Shown: piece after piece, positions 16,423 to 19,431 of the stretch
Layout: the number at the start of each line of letters is the position of its first letter
Position numbering within the stretch: position 1 is the first letter of the stretch
NCBI GenBank assembly: GCA_946619755.1
Contig: CAMOMI010000002.1
Coordinates: 1-61,771 of the forward strand
DNA: 61,771 bases
Origin: an uncultured Clostridia bacterium
GTDB lineage: Bacteria; Bacillota_I; Bacilli_A; RF39; UBA660
Direction of reading: 5' to 3'
Translations under genes and position numbers: made by a program
The notes under the pieces: generated by a model
The model's input: only the letters and a program-made list of their open reading frames with translations
The model's database searches: none
Told to the model about the DNA's origin: nothing

Positions 16423-19400
16423 CTATTTCGCTCCTTTCAATGCATTAGATACAGTAGATTTAGATACACCTAATTTATCTGCAATTTGTTGTAGTGTAAA
16501 ATTAGAATTAGCCATGGCTTTTATTCTACTTACTTGAGCAGGGGTTAAACCTTTTCTGTTAGATGGCATAGATTTTTCTCTTAAAATATCTGGATCTGAA
16601 TTAGCTAAAATAACTCTAAGTTTATTCTCAGATATAGCACCTGCTTGTATAGCTTCCCATTGTTTATCTGTTATATTAATATTTCTATTTCTTCTAGATA
16701 CAGACCCAACAGATTCTCTATATTTAGTCATTGCTCTTTGCCCAGCTTTTCTTTCATCTTCTGCTTTCATATCTGGATCAGCAGCTTTCTTTTTTTTAAG
16801 ATCTGCAGCAGCGAGTCTAGTTGCTTGTCTTTCTTTAACACTATTTTTCATAGCATTATTAAGTGCAACATTTAATTCAGATACCTCTTTAGAATATATC
16901 TTGGCTGCATTCTTATCATATTTAAGATTTTCTGTCTTTTTCATAGACACTCTAGCTTGATTTGCTAAAGATTTCATACTATTTGCATAATCAGCATATA
17001 ATATTTCCATTTTATGTTTTTGAGGCGATACTAAATCATATGCATCATCTCTAGTAGCCATTAATGGAACTTGTGTGGTTCTAGTTTTCTTACGATATAT
17101 AATAGAACCATCTCTATTTTCAAATGATACAATACCAGTTTTTTTATCTTTAACCATAATTGGTTCATATTTTTCAACTTGTTTTGGATCATTCATATTA
17201 TAAGTTATTTTTTTACCACCAGAAGTCCACACAGTTTTAATACCAGTTTTTTTATCATAAGTAGAATCAGCATAATATAGTTTTTTATCTTCAGCCTTTT
17301 GATAAATAAGAGAACCTTCAGGTCTAGAAGGATCATACCATTTAGTATCTTTCAAATTAATATGTGCTTCTCCTCTTCTTTTTTCAACATTAACTGGAGA
17401 TTTGGCTCTTGAAACTATTGTTCCAGCACCACCATATTTACCATTTTCTTTCTTTTGATATAATTGTTTTAAAGATGTGATATTATTATCTTTATAACTT
17501 TGATTATAGTCTAATTTATGTTTTTCAGCATCAATAACAACCATTGAATGTTTTACAGCCCTAGCTAAGTGATCATCAGGAGCTCCTTGTAATGTCATAT
17601 CTGTTATAAGATTAGATATTTTTCCCATCTCCATATCAGTACGTTTCATTACTTTAAACTCTTTACCATTACGATAATAATGTTCTTGACCATTTTTGTC
17701 AACTGTTTTTAAATCATATTTATATGACTTTGGTTCAAAATTCTCTAATTGTTTAAGTTGATCACGACTAGAAATTCTAACACGGCCTTTATTATCATGA
17801 GTTGGTATACACATAACTGTATCACCATCAAAATCAGCACCTGATAATCTAGATGCAACCCTAGAATTTATACATATAGCATCGATAGATTGTTTACCAA
17901 TCATTTTTTCACCAACGGCATTCTTATTATTTACAGTACATATAGGGATTTCGAAAGTACCACCATGAGGATATCTTACAAGAGCTAATTTAGTTCCATC
18001 TTTATATCCTGGTGCATATACTTCATTATCTTTTAATGTATTATTTGGTAAAATAACATGATACTTCTGTCCAGGTAAAGCCGCAGCTTTTAAATCGACA
18101 GCAGCACCATCACATTTATCTGCAAATTTTTGTAAATAATATTTTTTAACAGTCGGATTAGTTAAAGCCATAATATCATCATATTCTTGTTTTCTTTCAG
18201 CTTTAGCTAAATCTAATTGTTTCTTTGCTAATGTTAATGACTGTTTAGATAAAAATTGTGATGGTAAGGCATCTTTCCATTCAGTCCAATCACCTTCATC
18301 TGATCTTTTATTTATAAGACCTAATTTCTTTTTACCATCTTTTTTATCGACATACCAGTATTGACCACCTAAATCTGCATCTTTAATATTTGAACCAAAC
18401 GGATTATCTGGATCATTTTTTATAGGTTTTAAAACTTCTTTCATAGGTACAGATCTTTTTTTATTAGTATTAAATCTTACATCAATACCATCTGGTAAAT
18501 CATCAGCATAAACAGCCATGCCTTTTAAATAATGAGTATTATCAACTAATATACGAACTTGTGCATATTTTTTATTATCACCTAAATATAAATCTTGACA
18601 ACCTCTACGGACTTCAATAACACCATCCATATCAGTTCCACCATCTTCATCATAACGAATTTGTAAACGTTTAGAATTTAATGATGTAGGATATGTAAAT
18701 TTAGGTTCAAAAGTATCACCACGATCGTGAGTTGTGTAATTGTTGATTGTTTTTATTTTATCATATTTATAAATATCTTTATATGGTACTTCTGGTTTAG
18801 CTAAAACAACCTGATTAGTTTGTTGATTTTTATTAGTTGGCTGAGGTATACCACCTTTATAAACATGATAACCTTGTCTTTCAAGAATATATAATGCTGT
18901 ATCTAGTTTTTCTTTAGATACACCACCTAATAAATCTCTTTCAACACCAGAACCAACATCTACCATTTTCTTACCATCTACTTCTTTTTTAAGTAAATTA
19001 GCAAGCTCTTGTGCTTGATTAACTCTTTGAACGTGTTCTTGATTTAACCAACTTCTAACTGTAGATTCTCGAACACCCATTTCTTTACCAATTTCAGTTG
19101 GCCCCATTCCTTGTTTCTTAAGTTGTTTAGCTCTAGTAATATCCATCATCTGTTTTTCGTTTAAAGATATTCTTTTTTCCCTACGATATTGTGTAGTATT
19201 CATACCGAATTCTTTTTTAATATTTTCAGGAGTCTCGGTCCAACCTTTAGCCTTAAGTTTTTCAACTCTTGCTAAAAAATCAATACCTCTTTGGTAAGGG
19301 TTTTCACCAGAACCCCATGGATAACGTCCTGAATTTCCTCCATCCAAATGACCCTTTCCATAATGCATCAACATACTTGGATCATTATGTACTCCAAAAT

Positions 19401-19431
19401 ATGATTTCATTTCTTCTGCAATTGGATTCAT
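16423..19431 (-). CDS. YonO-like single-chain two-barrel RNA polymerase with N- and C-terminal HTH domains
   Basis: The centre reads KLALVRYPHGGTFEIPICTV...ICINSRVASRLSGADFDGDTVMCIPTHD (GADFDGDT at about 17818-17841), which is the beta-prime/YonO/RdRP metal-binding signature. HTH-like GMGPTEIGKEMGVRESTVRSWLNQ lies near the N-terminus and FTLQQIADKLGVSKSTVSNALKG at the C-terminus. Confidence 0.65.
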   Translation of the reverse strand: MNPIAEEMKSYFGVHNDPSMLMHYGKGHLDGGNSGRYPWGSGENPYQRGIDFLARVEKLKAKGWTETPENIKKEFGMNTTQYRREKRISLNEKQMMDITRAKQLKKQGMGPTEIGKEMGVRESTVRSWLNQEHVQRVNQAQELANLLKKEVDGKKMVDVGSGVERDLLGGVSKEKLDTALYILERQGYHVYKGGIPQPTNKNQQTNQVVLAKPEVPYKDIYKYDKIKTINNYTTHDRGDTFEPKFTYPTSLNSKRLQIRYDEDGGTDMDGVIEVRRGCQDLYLGDNKKYAQVRILVDNTHYLKGMAVYADDLPDGIDVRFNTNKKRSVPMKEVLKPIKNDPDNPFGSNIKDADLGGQYWYVDKKDGKKKLGLINKRSDEGDWTEWKDALPSQFLSKQSLTLAKKQLDLAKAERKQEYDDIMALTNPTVKKYYLQKFADKCDGAAVDLKAAALPGQKYHVILPNNTLKDNEVYAPGYKDGTKLALVRYPHGGTFEIPICTVNNKNAVGEKMIGKQSIDAICINSRVASRLSGADFDGDTVMCIPTHDNKGRVRISSRDQLKQLENFEPKSYKYDLKTVDKNGQEHYYRNGKEFKVMKRTDMEMGKISNLITDMTLQGAPDDHLARAVKHSMVVIDAEKHKLDYNQSYKDNNITSLKQLYQKKENGKYGGAGTIVSRAKSPVNVEKRRGEAHINLKDTKWYDPSRPEGSLIYQKAEDKKLYYADSTYDKKTGIKTVWTSGGKKITYNMNDPKQVEKYEPIMVKDKKTGIVSFENRDGSIIYRKKTRTTQVPLMATRDDAYDLVSPQKHKMEILYADYANSMKSLANQARVSMKKTENLKYDKNAAKIYSKEVSELNVALNNAMKNSVKERQATRLAAADLKKKKAADPDMKAEDERKAGQRAMTKYRESVGSVSRRNRNINITDKQWEAIQAGAISENKLRVILANSDPDILREKSMPSNRKGLTPAQVSRIKAMANSNFTLQQIADKLGVSKSTVSNALKGAK

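What the first reader, a model, noticed from the sequence alone, without database searches (positions are those of the whole stretch)
16423..19431. Single-chain two-barrel (YonO/RdRP-like) RNA polymerase fused to HTH domains at both ends
Seen: the centre of the 1002-aa ORF reads KLALVRYPHGGTFEIPICTV...IDAICINSRVASRLSGADFDGDTVMCIPTHD, with GADFDGDT encoded at about 17818-17841. Established: (N)ADFDGD is the Mg-chelating signature of the beta-prime double-psi beta-barrel. The R.P...G... / SG.D.DGD arrangement characterises the YonO (SPbeta prophage) and QDE-1/RdRP branch of single-polypeptide homologues of multisubunit RNAPs. Also seen: HTH-like segments near the N-terminus (NTTQYRREKRISLNE..., GMGPTEIGKEMGVRESTVRSWLNQ) and a sigma-region-4/LuxR-like HTH at the extreme C-terminus (LTPAQVSRIKAMANSNFTLQQIADKLGVSKSTVSNALKG). 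Inference: this is a self-contained phage transcriptase carrying its own DNA-recognition modules. That architecture is not, to my knowledge, described for YonO. It is the last large gene before the 1.3-kb non-coding region and the late operon, so it is a candidate late-gene polymerase.
Basis: partly seen in the sequence, partly recalled or inferred. Interest (0 to 1): 0.85.

Follow-up and report, generated by a model that had tools for sequence, protein, structure and literature searches.

The report
HTH-flanked single-chain phage RNA polymerase
This phage gene encodes a one-piece relative of cellular RNA polymerases with DNA-binding modules at both ends; the family is large and already recognised by computer analysis but never tested, and a conserved promoter-like motif found here may be its target.

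Summary
A 1002-aa ORF lies on the minus strand at 16423-19431, with DFDGD at 17821-17835 and HTH domains at both ends. Profile and fold comparisons put its centre in the two-barrel RNA polymerase superfamily (RdRP/QDE-1, YonO, P23-45 and crAss branch). It is not a YonO-family member: it matches PHROG 4291 end to end, whereas YonO is PHROG 8308. The family has over 1000 representatives at 50% identity and occurs in 250 phage records. The architecture is not new. Koert et al. (bioRxiv 10.1101/842583) described HTHs at both ends plus DxDGD for this family. No biochemical study was found.

The late-gene role is unproven. The genome is circular, so the gene sits at the right end of the map next to a probable cos site. 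The phage also encodes a sigma factor. I found a 28-bp bipartite motif (CGCG-N7-CA-N6-TATWAT-RGA) 11 times, on the coding strand only, in the non-structural arm and upstream of this gene's own operon. The same motif, with the same spacing, recurs in polymerase-carrying Arthrobacter, Rhodococcus and Lactococcus phages. It is absent from two Rhodococcus equi phages that lack the gene. This is most likely a sigma-independent, promoter-specific phage transcriptase. Its timing is unresolved.

The parts
16423..19431 (-). ORF of 1002 aa: HTH-flanked single-chain two-barrel RNA polymerase homologue (PHROG 4291 family)
19291..19365 (-). N-terminal invariant motif HYG-x(4-8)-SGRYPWGSG..P.Q (residues 23-47), disordered in the model; function unknown
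   Evidence: invariant columns; pLDDT below 50; weak DUF7211-like hit in one homologue
19027..19242 (-). N-terminal HTH region (residues about 64-135); recognition helix ESTVRSW with E122, S123 and R126 invariant across Firmicutes and Actinobacteria phage homologues
18457..18669 (-). First (beta-like) barrel, residues about 255-325: YAQVRI...YLKGMAVY...FNTNK, with invariant basic residues R293, K303 and K324
17797..18066 (-). Second (beta-prime-like, catalytic) barrel, residues about 456-545, with VRYPHGG and SGADFDGD
17821..17835 (-). DFDGD metal-binding signature (residues 533-537)
   Evidence: invariant
17458..17640 (-). Conserved helical pair after the catalytic barrel (residues 598-658), with MGKISNLITDMT...HSMVVIDAEKHKLDY; lies where the bridge helix sits in solved two-barrel polymerases; the G.ISN.IT motif is shared with YonO relatives
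17047..17409 (-). Beta-rich insertion (residues about 675-795), mostly absent from Actinobacteria-phage homologues; confidently modelled
16432..16557 (-). C-terminal HTH (residues 959-1000), sigma-region-4 / LuxR-like
20393..20423 (-). Bipartite promoter-like motif GGCGCGAAAAAATCATATCCTATTATGAGAAG, about 100 nt upstream of the endonuclease-exonuclease-polymerase operon; conserved at the same place in relatives
20004..20297 (-). VRR-NUC-type endonuclease, first gene of the conserved four-gene module
19439..19992 (-). Cas4-like exonuclease (PHROG 3953), split here into two ORFs (19798-19992 and 19439-19774)
16173..16421 (-). Conserved 82-aa protein (PHROG 4303) that always follows the polymerase gene
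31754..31784 (-). promoter-like motif copy
39180..39210 (-). promoter-like motif copy
40192..40222 (-). promoter-like motif copy
41465..41495 (-). promoter-like motif copy
41962..41992 (-). promoter-like motif copy
42653..42683 (-). promoter-like motif copy, directly after a hairpin plus T-run
42922..42952 (-). promoter-like motif copy, directly after a hairpin plus T-run
43200..43230 (-). promoter-like motif copy, directly after a hairpin plus T-run
43454..43484 (-). promoter-like motif copy; the Shine-Dalgarno AGGAGG starts at motif position +24
43714..43744 (-). promoter-like motif copy, the most upstream one in the non-structural arm
26096..26845 (-). Phage-encoded sigma-70-family factor (rival route to phage-specific transcription)
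15050..15140 (-). GC-rich conserved patch (..CATCGCGCCGGTCTTTAAATTTTCCCCGGAGG..), probable cos/pac site, i.e. the physical genome end downstream of the polymerase gene
   Evidence: ReqiPepy6 cos annotation

Best explanation
The ORF encodes a member of a very large, computationally recognised but biochemically untested family of single-chain two-barrel RNA polymerases (PHROG 4291). These are the 'HTH protein / putative RNA polymerase' of the Actinobacteria-phage supercluster and of the Lactococcus 1706 and Faecalibacterium phages. Proposed mechanism: two double-psi-barrel-like domains form one active site. The first barrel (residues about 255-325) supplies basic residues R293, K303 and K324. 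The second (about 456-545) supplies the DFDGD Mg2+ loop, and a bridge-helix-like pair follows it. The fused HTH modules take the place of a sigma factor and dock the enzyme on a phage-specific bipartite promoter of about 28 bp, (T/A)CGCG-N7-CA-N6-TATWAT-RGA. That motif occurs 11 times on the coding strand of the early/middle (non-structural) arm, including in front of the polymerase's own operon. The enzyme would then transcribe phage DNA independently of host sigma. Shown here: the gene, its conservation, the HTHs, the catalytic motifs, remote homology to RdRP/YonO/P23-45-type polymerases, and co-occurrence of the motif with the gene across host phyla. Inferred: polymerase activity, use of a DNA template, that the HTHs read this motif, and the timing. 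The enzyme could be made early from a low basal level or delivered in the virion.
For: Family and architecture: PHROG 4291 matches residues 18-1000 at E=0. 249 of 250 phage hits are full length. There are 1081 representatives at 50% identity with E<=1e-30, and the best 150 listed are nearly all 890-1077 aa. Pfam finds HTHs at both ends. Koert et al. describe the same architecture. Polymerase homology: Pfam RdRP is the only hit on the core (E 0.0031) and matches 27 of 37 members. hhalign against a YonO-family profile aligns the catalytic barrel at E 2.6e-4 to 5.4e-4. The motifs R..KG, R.PH, D.DGD and G.ISN.IT are collinear. Catalytic and basic residues are invariant. AF2 plus Foldseek puts QDE-1 and RDR2 at the top of the PDB hits, followed by beta-prime chains, the p97-N barrel and crAss gp66. 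BFVD gives probability 1.0 to P23-45 A7XX94. Promoter link: the 11 sites score 30-38 bits while the next best scores 8.3, and all are on the coding strand. No sigma-A-consensus promoter of 11/12 or better lies in intergenic DNA. At 43479 and 31779 the Shine-Dalgarno sequence overlaps the position where a sigma-70-type start site would fall. A matrix trained only on the window finds 8 sites forward and 0 reverse in Arthrobacter phage Mudcat, and 16 forward and 0 reverse in Rhodococcus phage ReqiPepy6, against shuffle means of 0.6 and 0.1. It also finds sites in Lactococcus phage 1706, MT835495 and a 72%-identical relative. It finds none in two R. equi phages that lack the gene. The N-terminal HTH recognition helix has invariant E122, S123 and R126, as expected for a conserved DNA target. 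The phage sigma factor is not shared by the other polymerase-carrying phages.
Against: There is no biochemical evidence for any family member. The structural matches are weak: no PDB hit at E<=1e-3, models at pLDDT 69-78, and Pfam RdRP below its cut-off. The motif's downstream half is a near-perfect host -10 box (TATAAT), so host RNA polymerase could read it. The polymerase's own operon sits behind the same motif, which creates a bootstrapping problem unless the host reads it at a low level or the enzyme is injected. The link between protein and motif is co-occurrence in related genomes that share ancestry, not a demonstrated interaction. I did not show covariation between HTH residues and the CGCG/CGCA variants.
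Confidence: 0.45

Rival explanations
1. Late-gene polymerase. Host RNA polymerase reads the CGCG-TATAAT promoters and so expresses the early/middle genes, including this one. The new polymerase then transcribes the packaging, head, tail and lysis genes from a still unidentified promoter near the joined genome ends (14.8-16.2 kb). This parallels YonO in SPbeta.
For: The gene is the last large gene of the right arm, directly upstream of the late genes on the circular map. Its operon has a promoter of the same class as the other non-structural genes. The -10-like half of the motif is TATAAT-like. My recollection is that YonO transcribes SPbeta late genes; I did not check this in a paper here. About 250 nt of leader before the first late gene is conserved in a 72% relative.
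Against: No repeated or conserved promoter-like motif was found before the late genes. The 1-kb AT-rich part of the non-coding region is absent from a close relative, which has only about 300 nt there. The phage also has a sigma factor that could serve late transcription. The motif's upstream box sits only 14 nt from the -10-like box and is not TTGACA-like, which does not fit sigma-70 geometry. The motif is absent from other R. equi phages.
Confidence: 0.25
2. The conserved motif is read by host RNA polymerase, possibly helped by this protein's HTHs acting as an activator or anti-repressor. The two-barrel core does something other than mRNA synthesis, for example priming replication, making a non-coding or antisense RNA, RNA-templated synthesis as its 'RdRP' label suggests, or acting at the adjacent cos site.
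For: The closest fold and profile matches are to RNA-dependent enzymes QDE-1 and RDR2, and QDE-1 uses both DNA and RNA templates. The N-terminal HTH resembles terminase-small-subunit HTHs. The gene is always next to cos and to nucleases. The motif carries a TATAAT-like -10 box.
Against: The characterised phage members of this branch for which I read a paper (P23-45 gp64 and gp96) are DNA-dependent transcriptases. From memory, not checked here, the same holds for YonO and crAss gp66. A dedicated replicase-primase is already present at 31935-35954 (PMC12205980 abstract). Invariant catalytic residues across more than 1000 clusters argue for a core, conserved enzymatic role.
Confidence: 0.2
3. The DFDGD match is fortuitous. 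The protein is only a large DNA-binding or structural protein with no polymerase fold.
For: Most GenBank records call it 'helix-turn-helix DNA-binding protein'. The depositors of phage 1706 called it 'structural protein'. No PDB fold hit reaches E<=1e-3.
Against: Four collinear polymerase motifs are invariant over phylum-level divergence. The only non-HTH Pfam hit is RdRP. The top-ranked fold hits are consistently two-barrel polymerases in two libraries. Koert et al. report HHpred probability 95.7% to RdRP.
Confidence: 0.05

Closest known systems
HTH-domain 'putative RNA polymerase' of the Actinobacteria-phage supercluster and the Lactococcus 1706 / Faecalibacterium FP_oengus phages (Koert et al. 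2021, bioRxiv 10.1101/842583); PHROG 4291
   Same: Same family: full-length profile match, 34-57% identity to cultured-phage members, HTH at both ends, DxDGD, the same four-gene synteny (endonuclease, exonuclease, polymerase, small protein) and the same position at the right genome end.
   Different: This copy belongs to an uncultured, 30%-GC, gut-type clade. It carries a beta-rich insertion of about 100 aa (residues about 690-790) that the actinophage members lack. Its genome has an extra sigma factor.
YonO of Bacillus prophage SPbeta (single-polypeptide DNA-dependent RNA polymerase; PHROG 8308)
   Same: A single chain with both barrels. The motifs R..KG, (L/V)R.PH, D.DGD and G.ISN.IT are collinear. 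The catalytic barrel aligns by hhalign at E 2.6e-4. Both are phage-encoded.
   Different: No BLASTP similarity and a different PHROG. YonO and its relatives have no detectable HTH domains. Only about 80 columns align. The phage type differs: a 134-kb temperate phage versus 55-77-kb siphoviruses.
QDE-1 / RDR2 cellular RNA-dependent RNA polymerases (Pfam PF05183)
   Same: Best PDB fold matches (7y7s_A, 7w82, 7roz) and the only non-HTH Pfam hit.
   Different: The Pfam score is below the gathering cut-off (16.7 versus 23.8 bits). Identity is about 10%. These are eukaryotic RNA-silencing enzymes without HTH domains. The 'RdRP' label on the phage proteins is a homology label, not a tested activity.
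Thermus phage P23-45 gp64 (non-virion) and gp96 (tape-measure-fused virion) RNA polymerases (PMC10770324)
   Same: Single-subunit two-barrel phage transcriptases that use phage-specific promoter motifs. The BFVD match to P23-45 A7XX94 has probability 1.0 and E 3.3e-4 over 450 columns. PDB 8h2m appears among the hits. They show that a phage of this kind can run early transcription with its own two-barrel enzymes.
   Different: 14% identity. The paper text mentions no helix-turn-helix domain. The promoter motifs and host differ. I did not confirm that A7XX94 is gp64.
crAss-like phage phi14:2 gp66 virion RNA polymerase (PDB 6vr4)
   Same: A QDE-1-like two-barrel core. It appears among the fold hits, and crAss-like proteins appear in BFVD. 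It is a possible functional analogy if this family is virion-delivered.
   Different: gp66 is about 2200 aa. Only 73 columns align, with E above 1. Virion packaging of the present family rests only on a depositor's 'structural protein' label for phage 1706 orf75.

Membership tests
Two-barrel (double-psi beta-barrel) RNA polymerase superfamily | DxDxD (here DFDGD) metal-binding loop in the beta-prime-like barrel, preceded by the R.P strand | tested here: met
   VRYPHGG at 485-491 and SGADFDGD at 530-537, invariant; aligned to YonO RSPH/DNDGD by hhalign
Two-barrel (double-psi beta-barrel) RNA polymerase superfamily | A second barrel that contributes conserved basic residues to the active site | tested here: inconclusive
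   A beta-rich domain at 255-325 is modelled at pLDDT 84-94. R293, K303 and K324 are invariant. An R..KG motif is shared with YonO. I did not verify the double-psi topology of this domain or its position next to DFDGD in 3D.
Two-barrel (double-psi beta-barrel) RNA polymerase superfamily | Overall fold similarity to solved two-barrel polymerases | tested here: inconclusive
   The top PDB hits are QDE-1 and RDR2 (probability 0.80-0.85), but E is 1.6e-3 to 1.3e-2 and TM 0.18-0.34. BFVD gives P23-45 A7XX94 probability 1.0 at E 3.3e-4.
Two-barrel (double-psi beta-barrel) RNA polymerase superfamily | Template-dependent RNA synthesis | not testable with these tools
   No experimental report was found for any family member.
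YonO family (PHROG 8308) | Significant full-length sequence or profile similarity to YonO | tested here: not met
   BLASTP best E 2.2. YonO hits PHROG 8308, not 4291. hhalign aligns only 76-83 columns.
Pfam RdRP (PF05183, eukaryotic-type cellular RdRP) | Score at or above the Pfam gathering cut-off (23.8 bits) | tested here: not met
   16.7 bits, E 0.0031, on the core. 27 of 37 members hit at E<=10, best 1.4e-4. Koert et al. report HHpred probability 95.7%.
PHROG 4291 / HTH-flanked putative RNA polymerase of 1706-like and actinophage genomes | End-to-end profile match | tested here: met
   Residues 18-1000 against profile positions 9-907 of 909, E=0, 1099.9 bits
PHROG 4291 / HTH-flanked putative RNA polymerase of 1706-like and actinophage genomes | HTH domains at both termini | tested here: met
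   36 of 37 scanned entries (every full-length family member) hit HTH_23, Sigma70_r4_2 and HTH_38.
PHROG 4291 / HTH-flanked putative RNA polymerase of 1706-like and actinophage genomes | Conserved synteny: VRR-NUC endonuclease, Cas4-like exonuclease, polymerase, small protein, genome end | tested here: met
   Window genes; Mudcat, ReqiPepy6, GirlPower and Duffington. In 1706 and CHPC971 a few genes are interposed.
Sigma-70 region 4 | Pfam Sigma70_r4 / r4_2 above cut-off together with other sigma regions | tested here: inconclusive
   r4 scores 26.6 (cut-off 24.1) and r4_2 scores 27.5 (cut-off 25.7). Generic HTH families score higher and no region 2 is present. It is an HTH of that general type, not a sigma factor.
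Virion-packaged phage RNA polymerases (N4 vRNAP, crAss gp66, P23-45 gp96) | Protein present in purified virions and ejected into the host | not testable with these tools
   The only lead is that GenBank EU081845.1 labels the 1706 homologue orf75 'structural protein', echoed in the ReqiPepy6 record. I could not check the method behind that label.

The most novel reading that the evidence does not exclude
The family is a sigma-independent transcriptase whose fused HTH modules read a bipartite promoter of about 28 bp (CGCG/CGCA-N7-CA-N6-TATWAT-RGA). That promoter has been conserved with exact spacing from Clostridia-type gut phages to Lactococcus, Arthrobacter and Rhodococcus phages. The enzyme is packaged in the virion and injected, so these siphoviruses start early transcription without host RNA polymerase, following N4/crAss logic. 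It would be the first two-barrel polymerase with built-in HTH promoter recognition and a promoter code that can already be read from genomes.
Probability: 0.2. Interest if true: 0.8.

Novelty: new member of a known kind. Interest (0 to 1): 0.55.

Why it matters
Single-chain relatives of cellular RNA polymerases are the simplest versions of the enzyme that transcribes all cellular genomes. The few characterised cases I checked or recall (YonO, QDE-1, crAss gp66, P23-45 gp64 and gp96) have no reported fused DNA-recognition domain. This family is very large: more than 1000 clusters at 50% identity. It is present in hundreds of cultured, easily handled phages from the SEA-PHAGES collections and from dairy lactococci. 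It carries HTH modules at both ends. From this work it also has a candidate promoter that is conserved across bacterial phyla. That makes one question directly testable: how does a minimal two-barrel polymerase find a promoter without a sigma factor? If confirmed, the enzyme and its promoter could also serve as a compact orthogonal transcription system for Gram-positive hosts. For genome annotation, the current labels ('HTH DNA-binding protein', 'RNA-dependent RNA polymerase', 'structural protein', 'tail fiber') are inconsistent and probably misleading.

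Tried and rejected
- **PDB sequence searches.** phmmer and a family profile against PDB sequences returned only small HTH proteins and no polymerase.
- **Sigma-70 promoter scans.** The consensus scan of 14.4-21 kb gave 48 sites against 40.5±7.1 in shuffles, so it is uninformative. 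A genome-wide scan found no intergenic match of 11/12 or better.
- **RNA genes.** Rfam at E<=0.1 on 14-21 kb and a tRNA scan of the whole window found nothing.
- **Repeats in the non-coding region.** The search in 14780-16200 gave only low-complexity AT-rich pairs and no candidate late promoter.
- **Strict pattern ACAT-N9-TAGA.** It was not enriched over shuffles, so I replaced it with a matrix trained on the window sites.
- **ReqiPepy6 single-site seed.** It found no further copies. The real ReqiPepy6 repeat emerged only from reading the upstream regions.
- **DUF7211 link.** A link between the N-terminal HYG...WGSG motif and DUF7211 of the head-module ORF 12802-13248 rests on one sub-threshold hit (E 0.006) in one homologue. 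I do not rely on it.
- **'Cyano_RUMTOR_01356' family.** This DFDGD family appears in the P23-45 paper's supplement. I could not establish whether it is the same family.
- **Experimental work.** Literature searches for experiments on this family, or for the promoter motif in Arthrobacter, Rhodococcus or Lactococcus phage papers, found none. The original 1706 and ReqiPepy6 papers are not held.
- **Phage sigma factor as reader of the conserved motif.** I think this unlikely, because tblastn does not find the sigma factor in any of the other polymerase-carrying phages. It remains a candidate for late transcription in this phage.

Full report
**1. The observation**

The window holds a 1002-codon ORF on the minus strand at 16423-19431. 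GADFDGDT is residues 531-538, which is nt 17818-17841.

Pfam finds only helix-turn-helix families. At the C-terminus (residues 959-999), HTH_23, HTH_38, HTH_3, Sigma70_r4 and Sigma70_r4_2 all score above their cut-offs. At the N-terminus (about 99-136), HTH_29 and terminase-type HTHs score at or just below cut-off. No Pfam family covers the centre of the whole protein.

The ORF is a real, conserved gene:
- PHROG 4291 ('RNA-dependent RNA polymerase') matches residues 18-1000 at E=0.
- tblastn finds it in 250 phage records, 249 of them over at least 80% of its length, at 34-57% identity. The counts are Arthrobacter 95, Gordonia 55, Streptomyces 54 and Lactococcus 13, with smaller numbers from Curtobacterium, Microbacterium, Rhodococcus and Faecalibacterium phages and from human gut and oral contigs.
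- The 5.8-billion-protein index returns at least 8000 hits.
- A profile search of 1.84 billion 50%-identity representatives finds 1081 at E<=1e-30. Nearly all of the best 150 are 890-1077 aa and match end to end.

**2. Whether it is a two-barrel polymerase**

Several independent but individually weak lines of evidence agree.

- **Pfam on the core.** Scanning residues 245-670 alone gives RdRP (PF05183) as the only hit: E 0.0031, 16.7 bits, below the 23.8-bit cut-off. 27 of 37 family members hit it, best E 1.4e-4.
- **Profile against YonO.** A family profile compared with a six-member YonO-family profile gives one alignment. Residues 462-545 align with YonO 469-547 at E 5.4e-4, or 2.6e-4 with other settings. 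RYPH lands on RSPH and DFDGD on DNDGD.
- **Collinear motifs.** Four motifs occur in the same order and at similar positions in both families: R..KG(L/M) near residue 290, (L/V)R.PH near 487, D.DGD near 535 and G.(I/V)SN.IT near 605.
- **Invariant residues.** Across alignments reaching 40% identity, the invariant residues include Y289, Q291, V292, R293, K303, G304, N321 and K324 in the first beta-rich domain. In the second they include R486, P488, H489, G490, G491, S530, G531, A532, D533, D535, G536 and D537. This fits the superfamily rule that one barrel supplies the Asp triad and the other supplies basic residues (review PMC7824862).
- **AlphaFold models.** The full-length model has pLDDT 69.4. 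A core model built from a more diverse alignment has pLDDT 77.6.
- **Foldseek against the PDB.** The full-length model ranks QDE-1 (7y7s_A, E 1.6e-3, probability 0.80) and maize and Arabidopsis RDR2 first. Next come the p97 N-domain double-psi barrel (probability 0.99), Pol II Rpb1 chains and P23-45 gp96. The core model ranks RDR2 first (E 1.3e-2, probability 0.85), then plastid and bacterial beta-prime chains (about 140 columns, rmsd 3.6-5 Å) and crAss gp66.
- **Foldseek against BFVD.** The core matches a 563-aa 'RdRP' of an uncultured siphovirus and P23-45 protein A7XX94, both at probability 1.0 and E about 3e-4, and crAss-like proteins further down.

No PDB match reaches E<=1e-3. The fold assignment is therefore well supported but not proven. 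I did not check the double-psi topology of the first barrel.

**3. Relation to YonO, and prior description**

YonO (SPbeta, 839 aa) belongs to PHROG 8308, not 4291. It shows no BLASTP similarity to this protein. YonO and two relatives have no Pfam HTH. The protein is therefore a distant cousin of YonO, not a member of its family.

Koert et al. (bioRxiv 10.1101/842583) studied the same protein in Streptomyces BI-cluster phages and their relatives, where it is annotated 'putative RNA polymerase' in Faecalibacterium phage FP_oengus. They reported an HHpred hit to PF05183 (95.7%, 286 columns). [quoted passage not shown] They proposed the gene as a signature gene of that phage group.

I found no paper reporting an experiment on it. 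GenBank labels are inconsistent: HTH DNA-binding protein, RdRP, hypothetical, tail fiber, structural protein.

**4. Context**

The first and last 55 nt of the window are identical, so this is a circular assembly of a complete genome of about 61.7 kb. Nearly all genes are on the minus strand.

In transcription order the map runs as follows:
- a small gene, then HNH, TerL, portal, protease-capsid and tail genes;
- across the window ends, the tape measure, further tail genes and an amidase;
- many small genes, the primase-polymerase replicase (31935-35954), an annealing protein, a helicase and a sigma-like factor;
- a VRR-NUC endonuclease, a Cas4-like exonuclease, this gene and an 82-aa protein.

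The last four genes form a module conserved in Mudcat, ReqiPepy6, GirlPower and Duffington. There it lies at the extreme right end of the linear genome, a few hundred bases from the cos end.

A GC-rich patch at about 15050-15140 is conserved in MT835495 and in the contig of a 72%-identical relative. It is probably the cos or pac site. The remaining roughly 1 kb of AT-rich non-coding DNA (15140-16170) is absent from that relative, which has only about 300 nt between the small gene and the first late gene. It contains no Rfam family, tRNA or convincing repeat.

'Last gene before the late operon' therefore simply restates that the gene is at the right end of the map.

**5. A conserved promoter-like motif**

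The rare tetramer CGCG marks eleven copies of a bipartite element on the coding strand:

(T/A)CGCG-A/T-rich N7-CAT(A/G)T-N-CTAT(T/A)AT-(A/G)GA(A)

The copies lie at 20393-20423 and 31754-31784, with nine more between 39180 and 43744. Four of them directly follow a hairpin plus T-run. With a matrix built from these sites, the eleven score 30-38 bits. The next best site in the genome scores 8.3, and nothing scores on the other strand. All copies lie in the non-structural arm. One lies about 100 nt upstream of the endonuclease-exonuclease-polymerase operon.

The geometry does not fit sigma-70:
- The CGCG box ends 14 nt before the TATWAT box and is not TTGACA-like.
- The position equivalent to A-11 is variable.
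- At 43479 and 31779 the Shine-Dalgarno sequence starts at motif positions +24 to +26. A start site 7 nt after the hexamer would therefore cut it off.
- No intergenic match to the sigma-A consensus of 11/12 or better exists in the genome.

The same element, with the same spacing, occurs in relatives from other host phyla.

| Genome | Sites |
|---|---|
| MT835495.1 | 609 (TTCGCGAAAAAAACATAGCCTATTATGAGGG) and 1197, upstream of its polymerase operon |
| Contig of 72%-identical relative | 9029, upstream of VRR-NUC |
| Lactococcus phage 1706 | six to seven copies of ..TTTTACATAYNCTATAGTAGAAAGAAGG in its early region |
| Rhodococcus phage ReqiPepy6 | TCGCA-N7-CAC(A/G)C-N-CTATAATGAGACC |
| Arthrobacter phage Mudcat | (T/C)CGCG-N6-ACAnGGG-CTATAAT-(A/G)GA |
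| GirlPower and Duffington | a related site upstream of VRR-NUC |

A matrix trained only on the window's eleven sites, with a 12-bit threshold, gave these counts:

| Genome | Forward | Reverse | Shuffle mean | Shuffle max |
|---|---|---|---|---|
| Mudcat (39 kb scanned) | 8 | 0 | 0.6 | 2 |
| ReqiPepy6 (whole genome) | 16 | 0 | 0.1 | 1 |
| 1706 | 5 | 0 | 2.7 | 8 |
| SPbeta 50-kb region (holds yonO) | 4 | 2 | 1.9 | 5 |

All ReqiPepy6 sites lie between 38.9 and 72.6 kb, that is, from the end of the tail-gene block through the non-structural arm. The SPbeta hits are all weak. The matrix finds none on either strand in 50 kb each of ReqiPine5 and ReqiDocB7. These two phages infect the same host species as ReqiPepy6 but lack the polymerase gene.

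The motif therefore travels with this phage lineage and its signature polymerase gene, not with the host.

**6. Other candidate readers of the motif**

The window encodes a sigma-70-family protein at 26096-26845. Its Sigma70_r2 score is 32.4 bits, above the 24-bit cut-off, and it matches PHROG 351. tblastn finds it in none of the other polymerase-carrying phages. Its relatives are SPO1-like, Staphylococcus and other gut phages. It cannot explain a motif shared by the whole lineage, but it could direct late transcription in this phage.

The HTH-flanked polymerase is the only transcription-type protein I found conserved across the lineage. Its N-terminal HTH recognition helix has invariant E122, S123 and R126, which fits a conserved DNA target.

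**7. Timing**

If the enzyme reads these promoters, it acts on early/middle genes and on its own operon. It must then be present before it is made. Either host RNA polymerase reads the motif weakly first, or the enzyme arrives with the DNA.

One lead favours arrival with the DNA. The depositors of Lactococcus phage 1706 annotated the homologue, orf75, as 'structural protein' (EU081845.1), and the ReqiPepy6 record repeats this. I could not read the original paper. The same label on small replication-region proteins (orf62, orf71) warns that DNA-bound contaminants may have been counted.

P23-45 shows that siphoviruses can run early transcription with two-barrel enzymes and phage-specific promoters (PMC10770324).

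**8. Verdict**

The finding is real and correctly classified at the superfamily level. It is a new member of a known but experimentally untouched family, so it is not novel as an architecture.

The added value here has four parts:
- the distinction from YonO;
- the circular-map reinterpretation of the gene's position;
- the rival sigma factor;
- a cross-phylum promoter-like motif that co-occurs with the gene and gives a concrete, testable target for its HTH modules.

My confidence that it is a genuine two-barrel polymerase homologue is about 0.9. My confidence that it is a promoter-specific transcriptase acting at this motif is about 0.45. For the late-gene polymerase model it is about 0.25.

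Noticed in passing
window 1-55 and 61717-61771: Exact 55-nt terminal direct repeat. The window is a circularly closed assembly of a complete phage genome of about 61.7 kb, with nearly all genes on the minus strand.
   Followed up: yes
window 20393-20423, 31754-31784, and nine sites between 39180 and 43744 (minus strand): Eleven copies of a bipartite promoter-like motif, CGCG-N7-CA-N6-TATWAT-RGA. It is conserved with the same spacing in polymerase-carrying Arthrobacter, Rhodococcus and Lactococcus phages and absent from two R. equi phages without the gene.
   Followed up: yes
window 26096-26845 (-): Phage-encoded sigma-70-family factor (Sigma70_r2 above the Pfam cut-off; PHROG 351). Its relatives are in SPO1-like, Staphylococcus and gut phages, not in the other phages that carry the polymerase gene. 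Its target promoters are unknown.
   Followed up: partly
window 19439-19992 (-); L020 9443-10001: The Cas4-like exonuclease (PHROG 3953) is broken into two ORFs, covering profile positions 1-61 and 90-179. It looks similarly split in a 72%-identical relative. Possible causes are a frameshift, a split gene or recoding.
   Followed up: partly
window about 15050-15140; L015 (MT835495.1) about 5790-5850; L020 about 13330-13410: A conserved GC-rich patch with short hairpins (..CATCGCGC(C/G)GGTCTTTAWATTTTCCCCGG..) in an otherwise AT-rich non-coding region. It is probably the cos/pac site.
   Followed up: partly
window 15140-16170: About 1 kb of 20-25% GC non-coding DNA between the small gene and the GC-rich patch. 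It is absent from the close relative L020, which has about 300 nt in total there. No RNA family, tRNA or clear repeat was found.
   Followed up: partly
window 14827-15050; L020 13410-13628: The roughly 220-nt leader before the first late-side gene shares blocks with the relative, for example AAGTTTATTCTCCTTTCTAAT and TGTGTCACTTTG(T/C)GTG. It may hold a late promoter or a packaging signal.
   Followed up: no
window 12802-13248 (-) and 19291-19365 (-): A head-module ORF carries DUF7211 (ELYHHGILGMKWGVRRY). The invariant N-terminal motif of the polymerase (HYG..SGRYPWGSG) is loosely similar. One homologue gives a sub-threshold DUF7211 hit (E 0.006). It might be a shared targeting or processing signal.
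   Followed up: partly
window 17047-17409 (-), residues about 675-795 of the ORF: A beta-rich insertion modelled with pLDDT 86-91. It is present in the Firmicutes/gut clade and largely absent from Actinobacteria-phage homologues.
   Followed up: no
window 40221-40979, 39216-40019, 37291-38205 (-): Three paralogous genes of unknown function (PHROG 2152). Two of them have their own copy of the promoter-like motif.
   Followed up: no
window 31935-35954 (-): A 1339-aa primase-polymerase (PHROG 4210, E=0). From the abstract of PMC12205980, this appears to be the family of phage 1706 GP55, a 'four-in-one replicase' characterised in 2025.
   Followed up: no
window 22231-22704 (-): A DUF1599 ('nucleotide modification associated domain 1') protein, which hints at DNA base modification in this phage.
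   Followed up: no
L015/L016 (MT835495.1), beyond about 40 kb: CGCG density and GC content rise sharply in the second half of this 'UNVERIFIED' 69.8-kb scaffold. It may be a phage-bacterium chimera or a prophage junction.
   Followed up: no
L019 (ReqiPepy6) 1174-1278, record 41174-41278: One copy of the conserved motif sits immediately upstream of the phage tRNA gene, so the element drives or precedes non-coding genes too.
   Followed up: no
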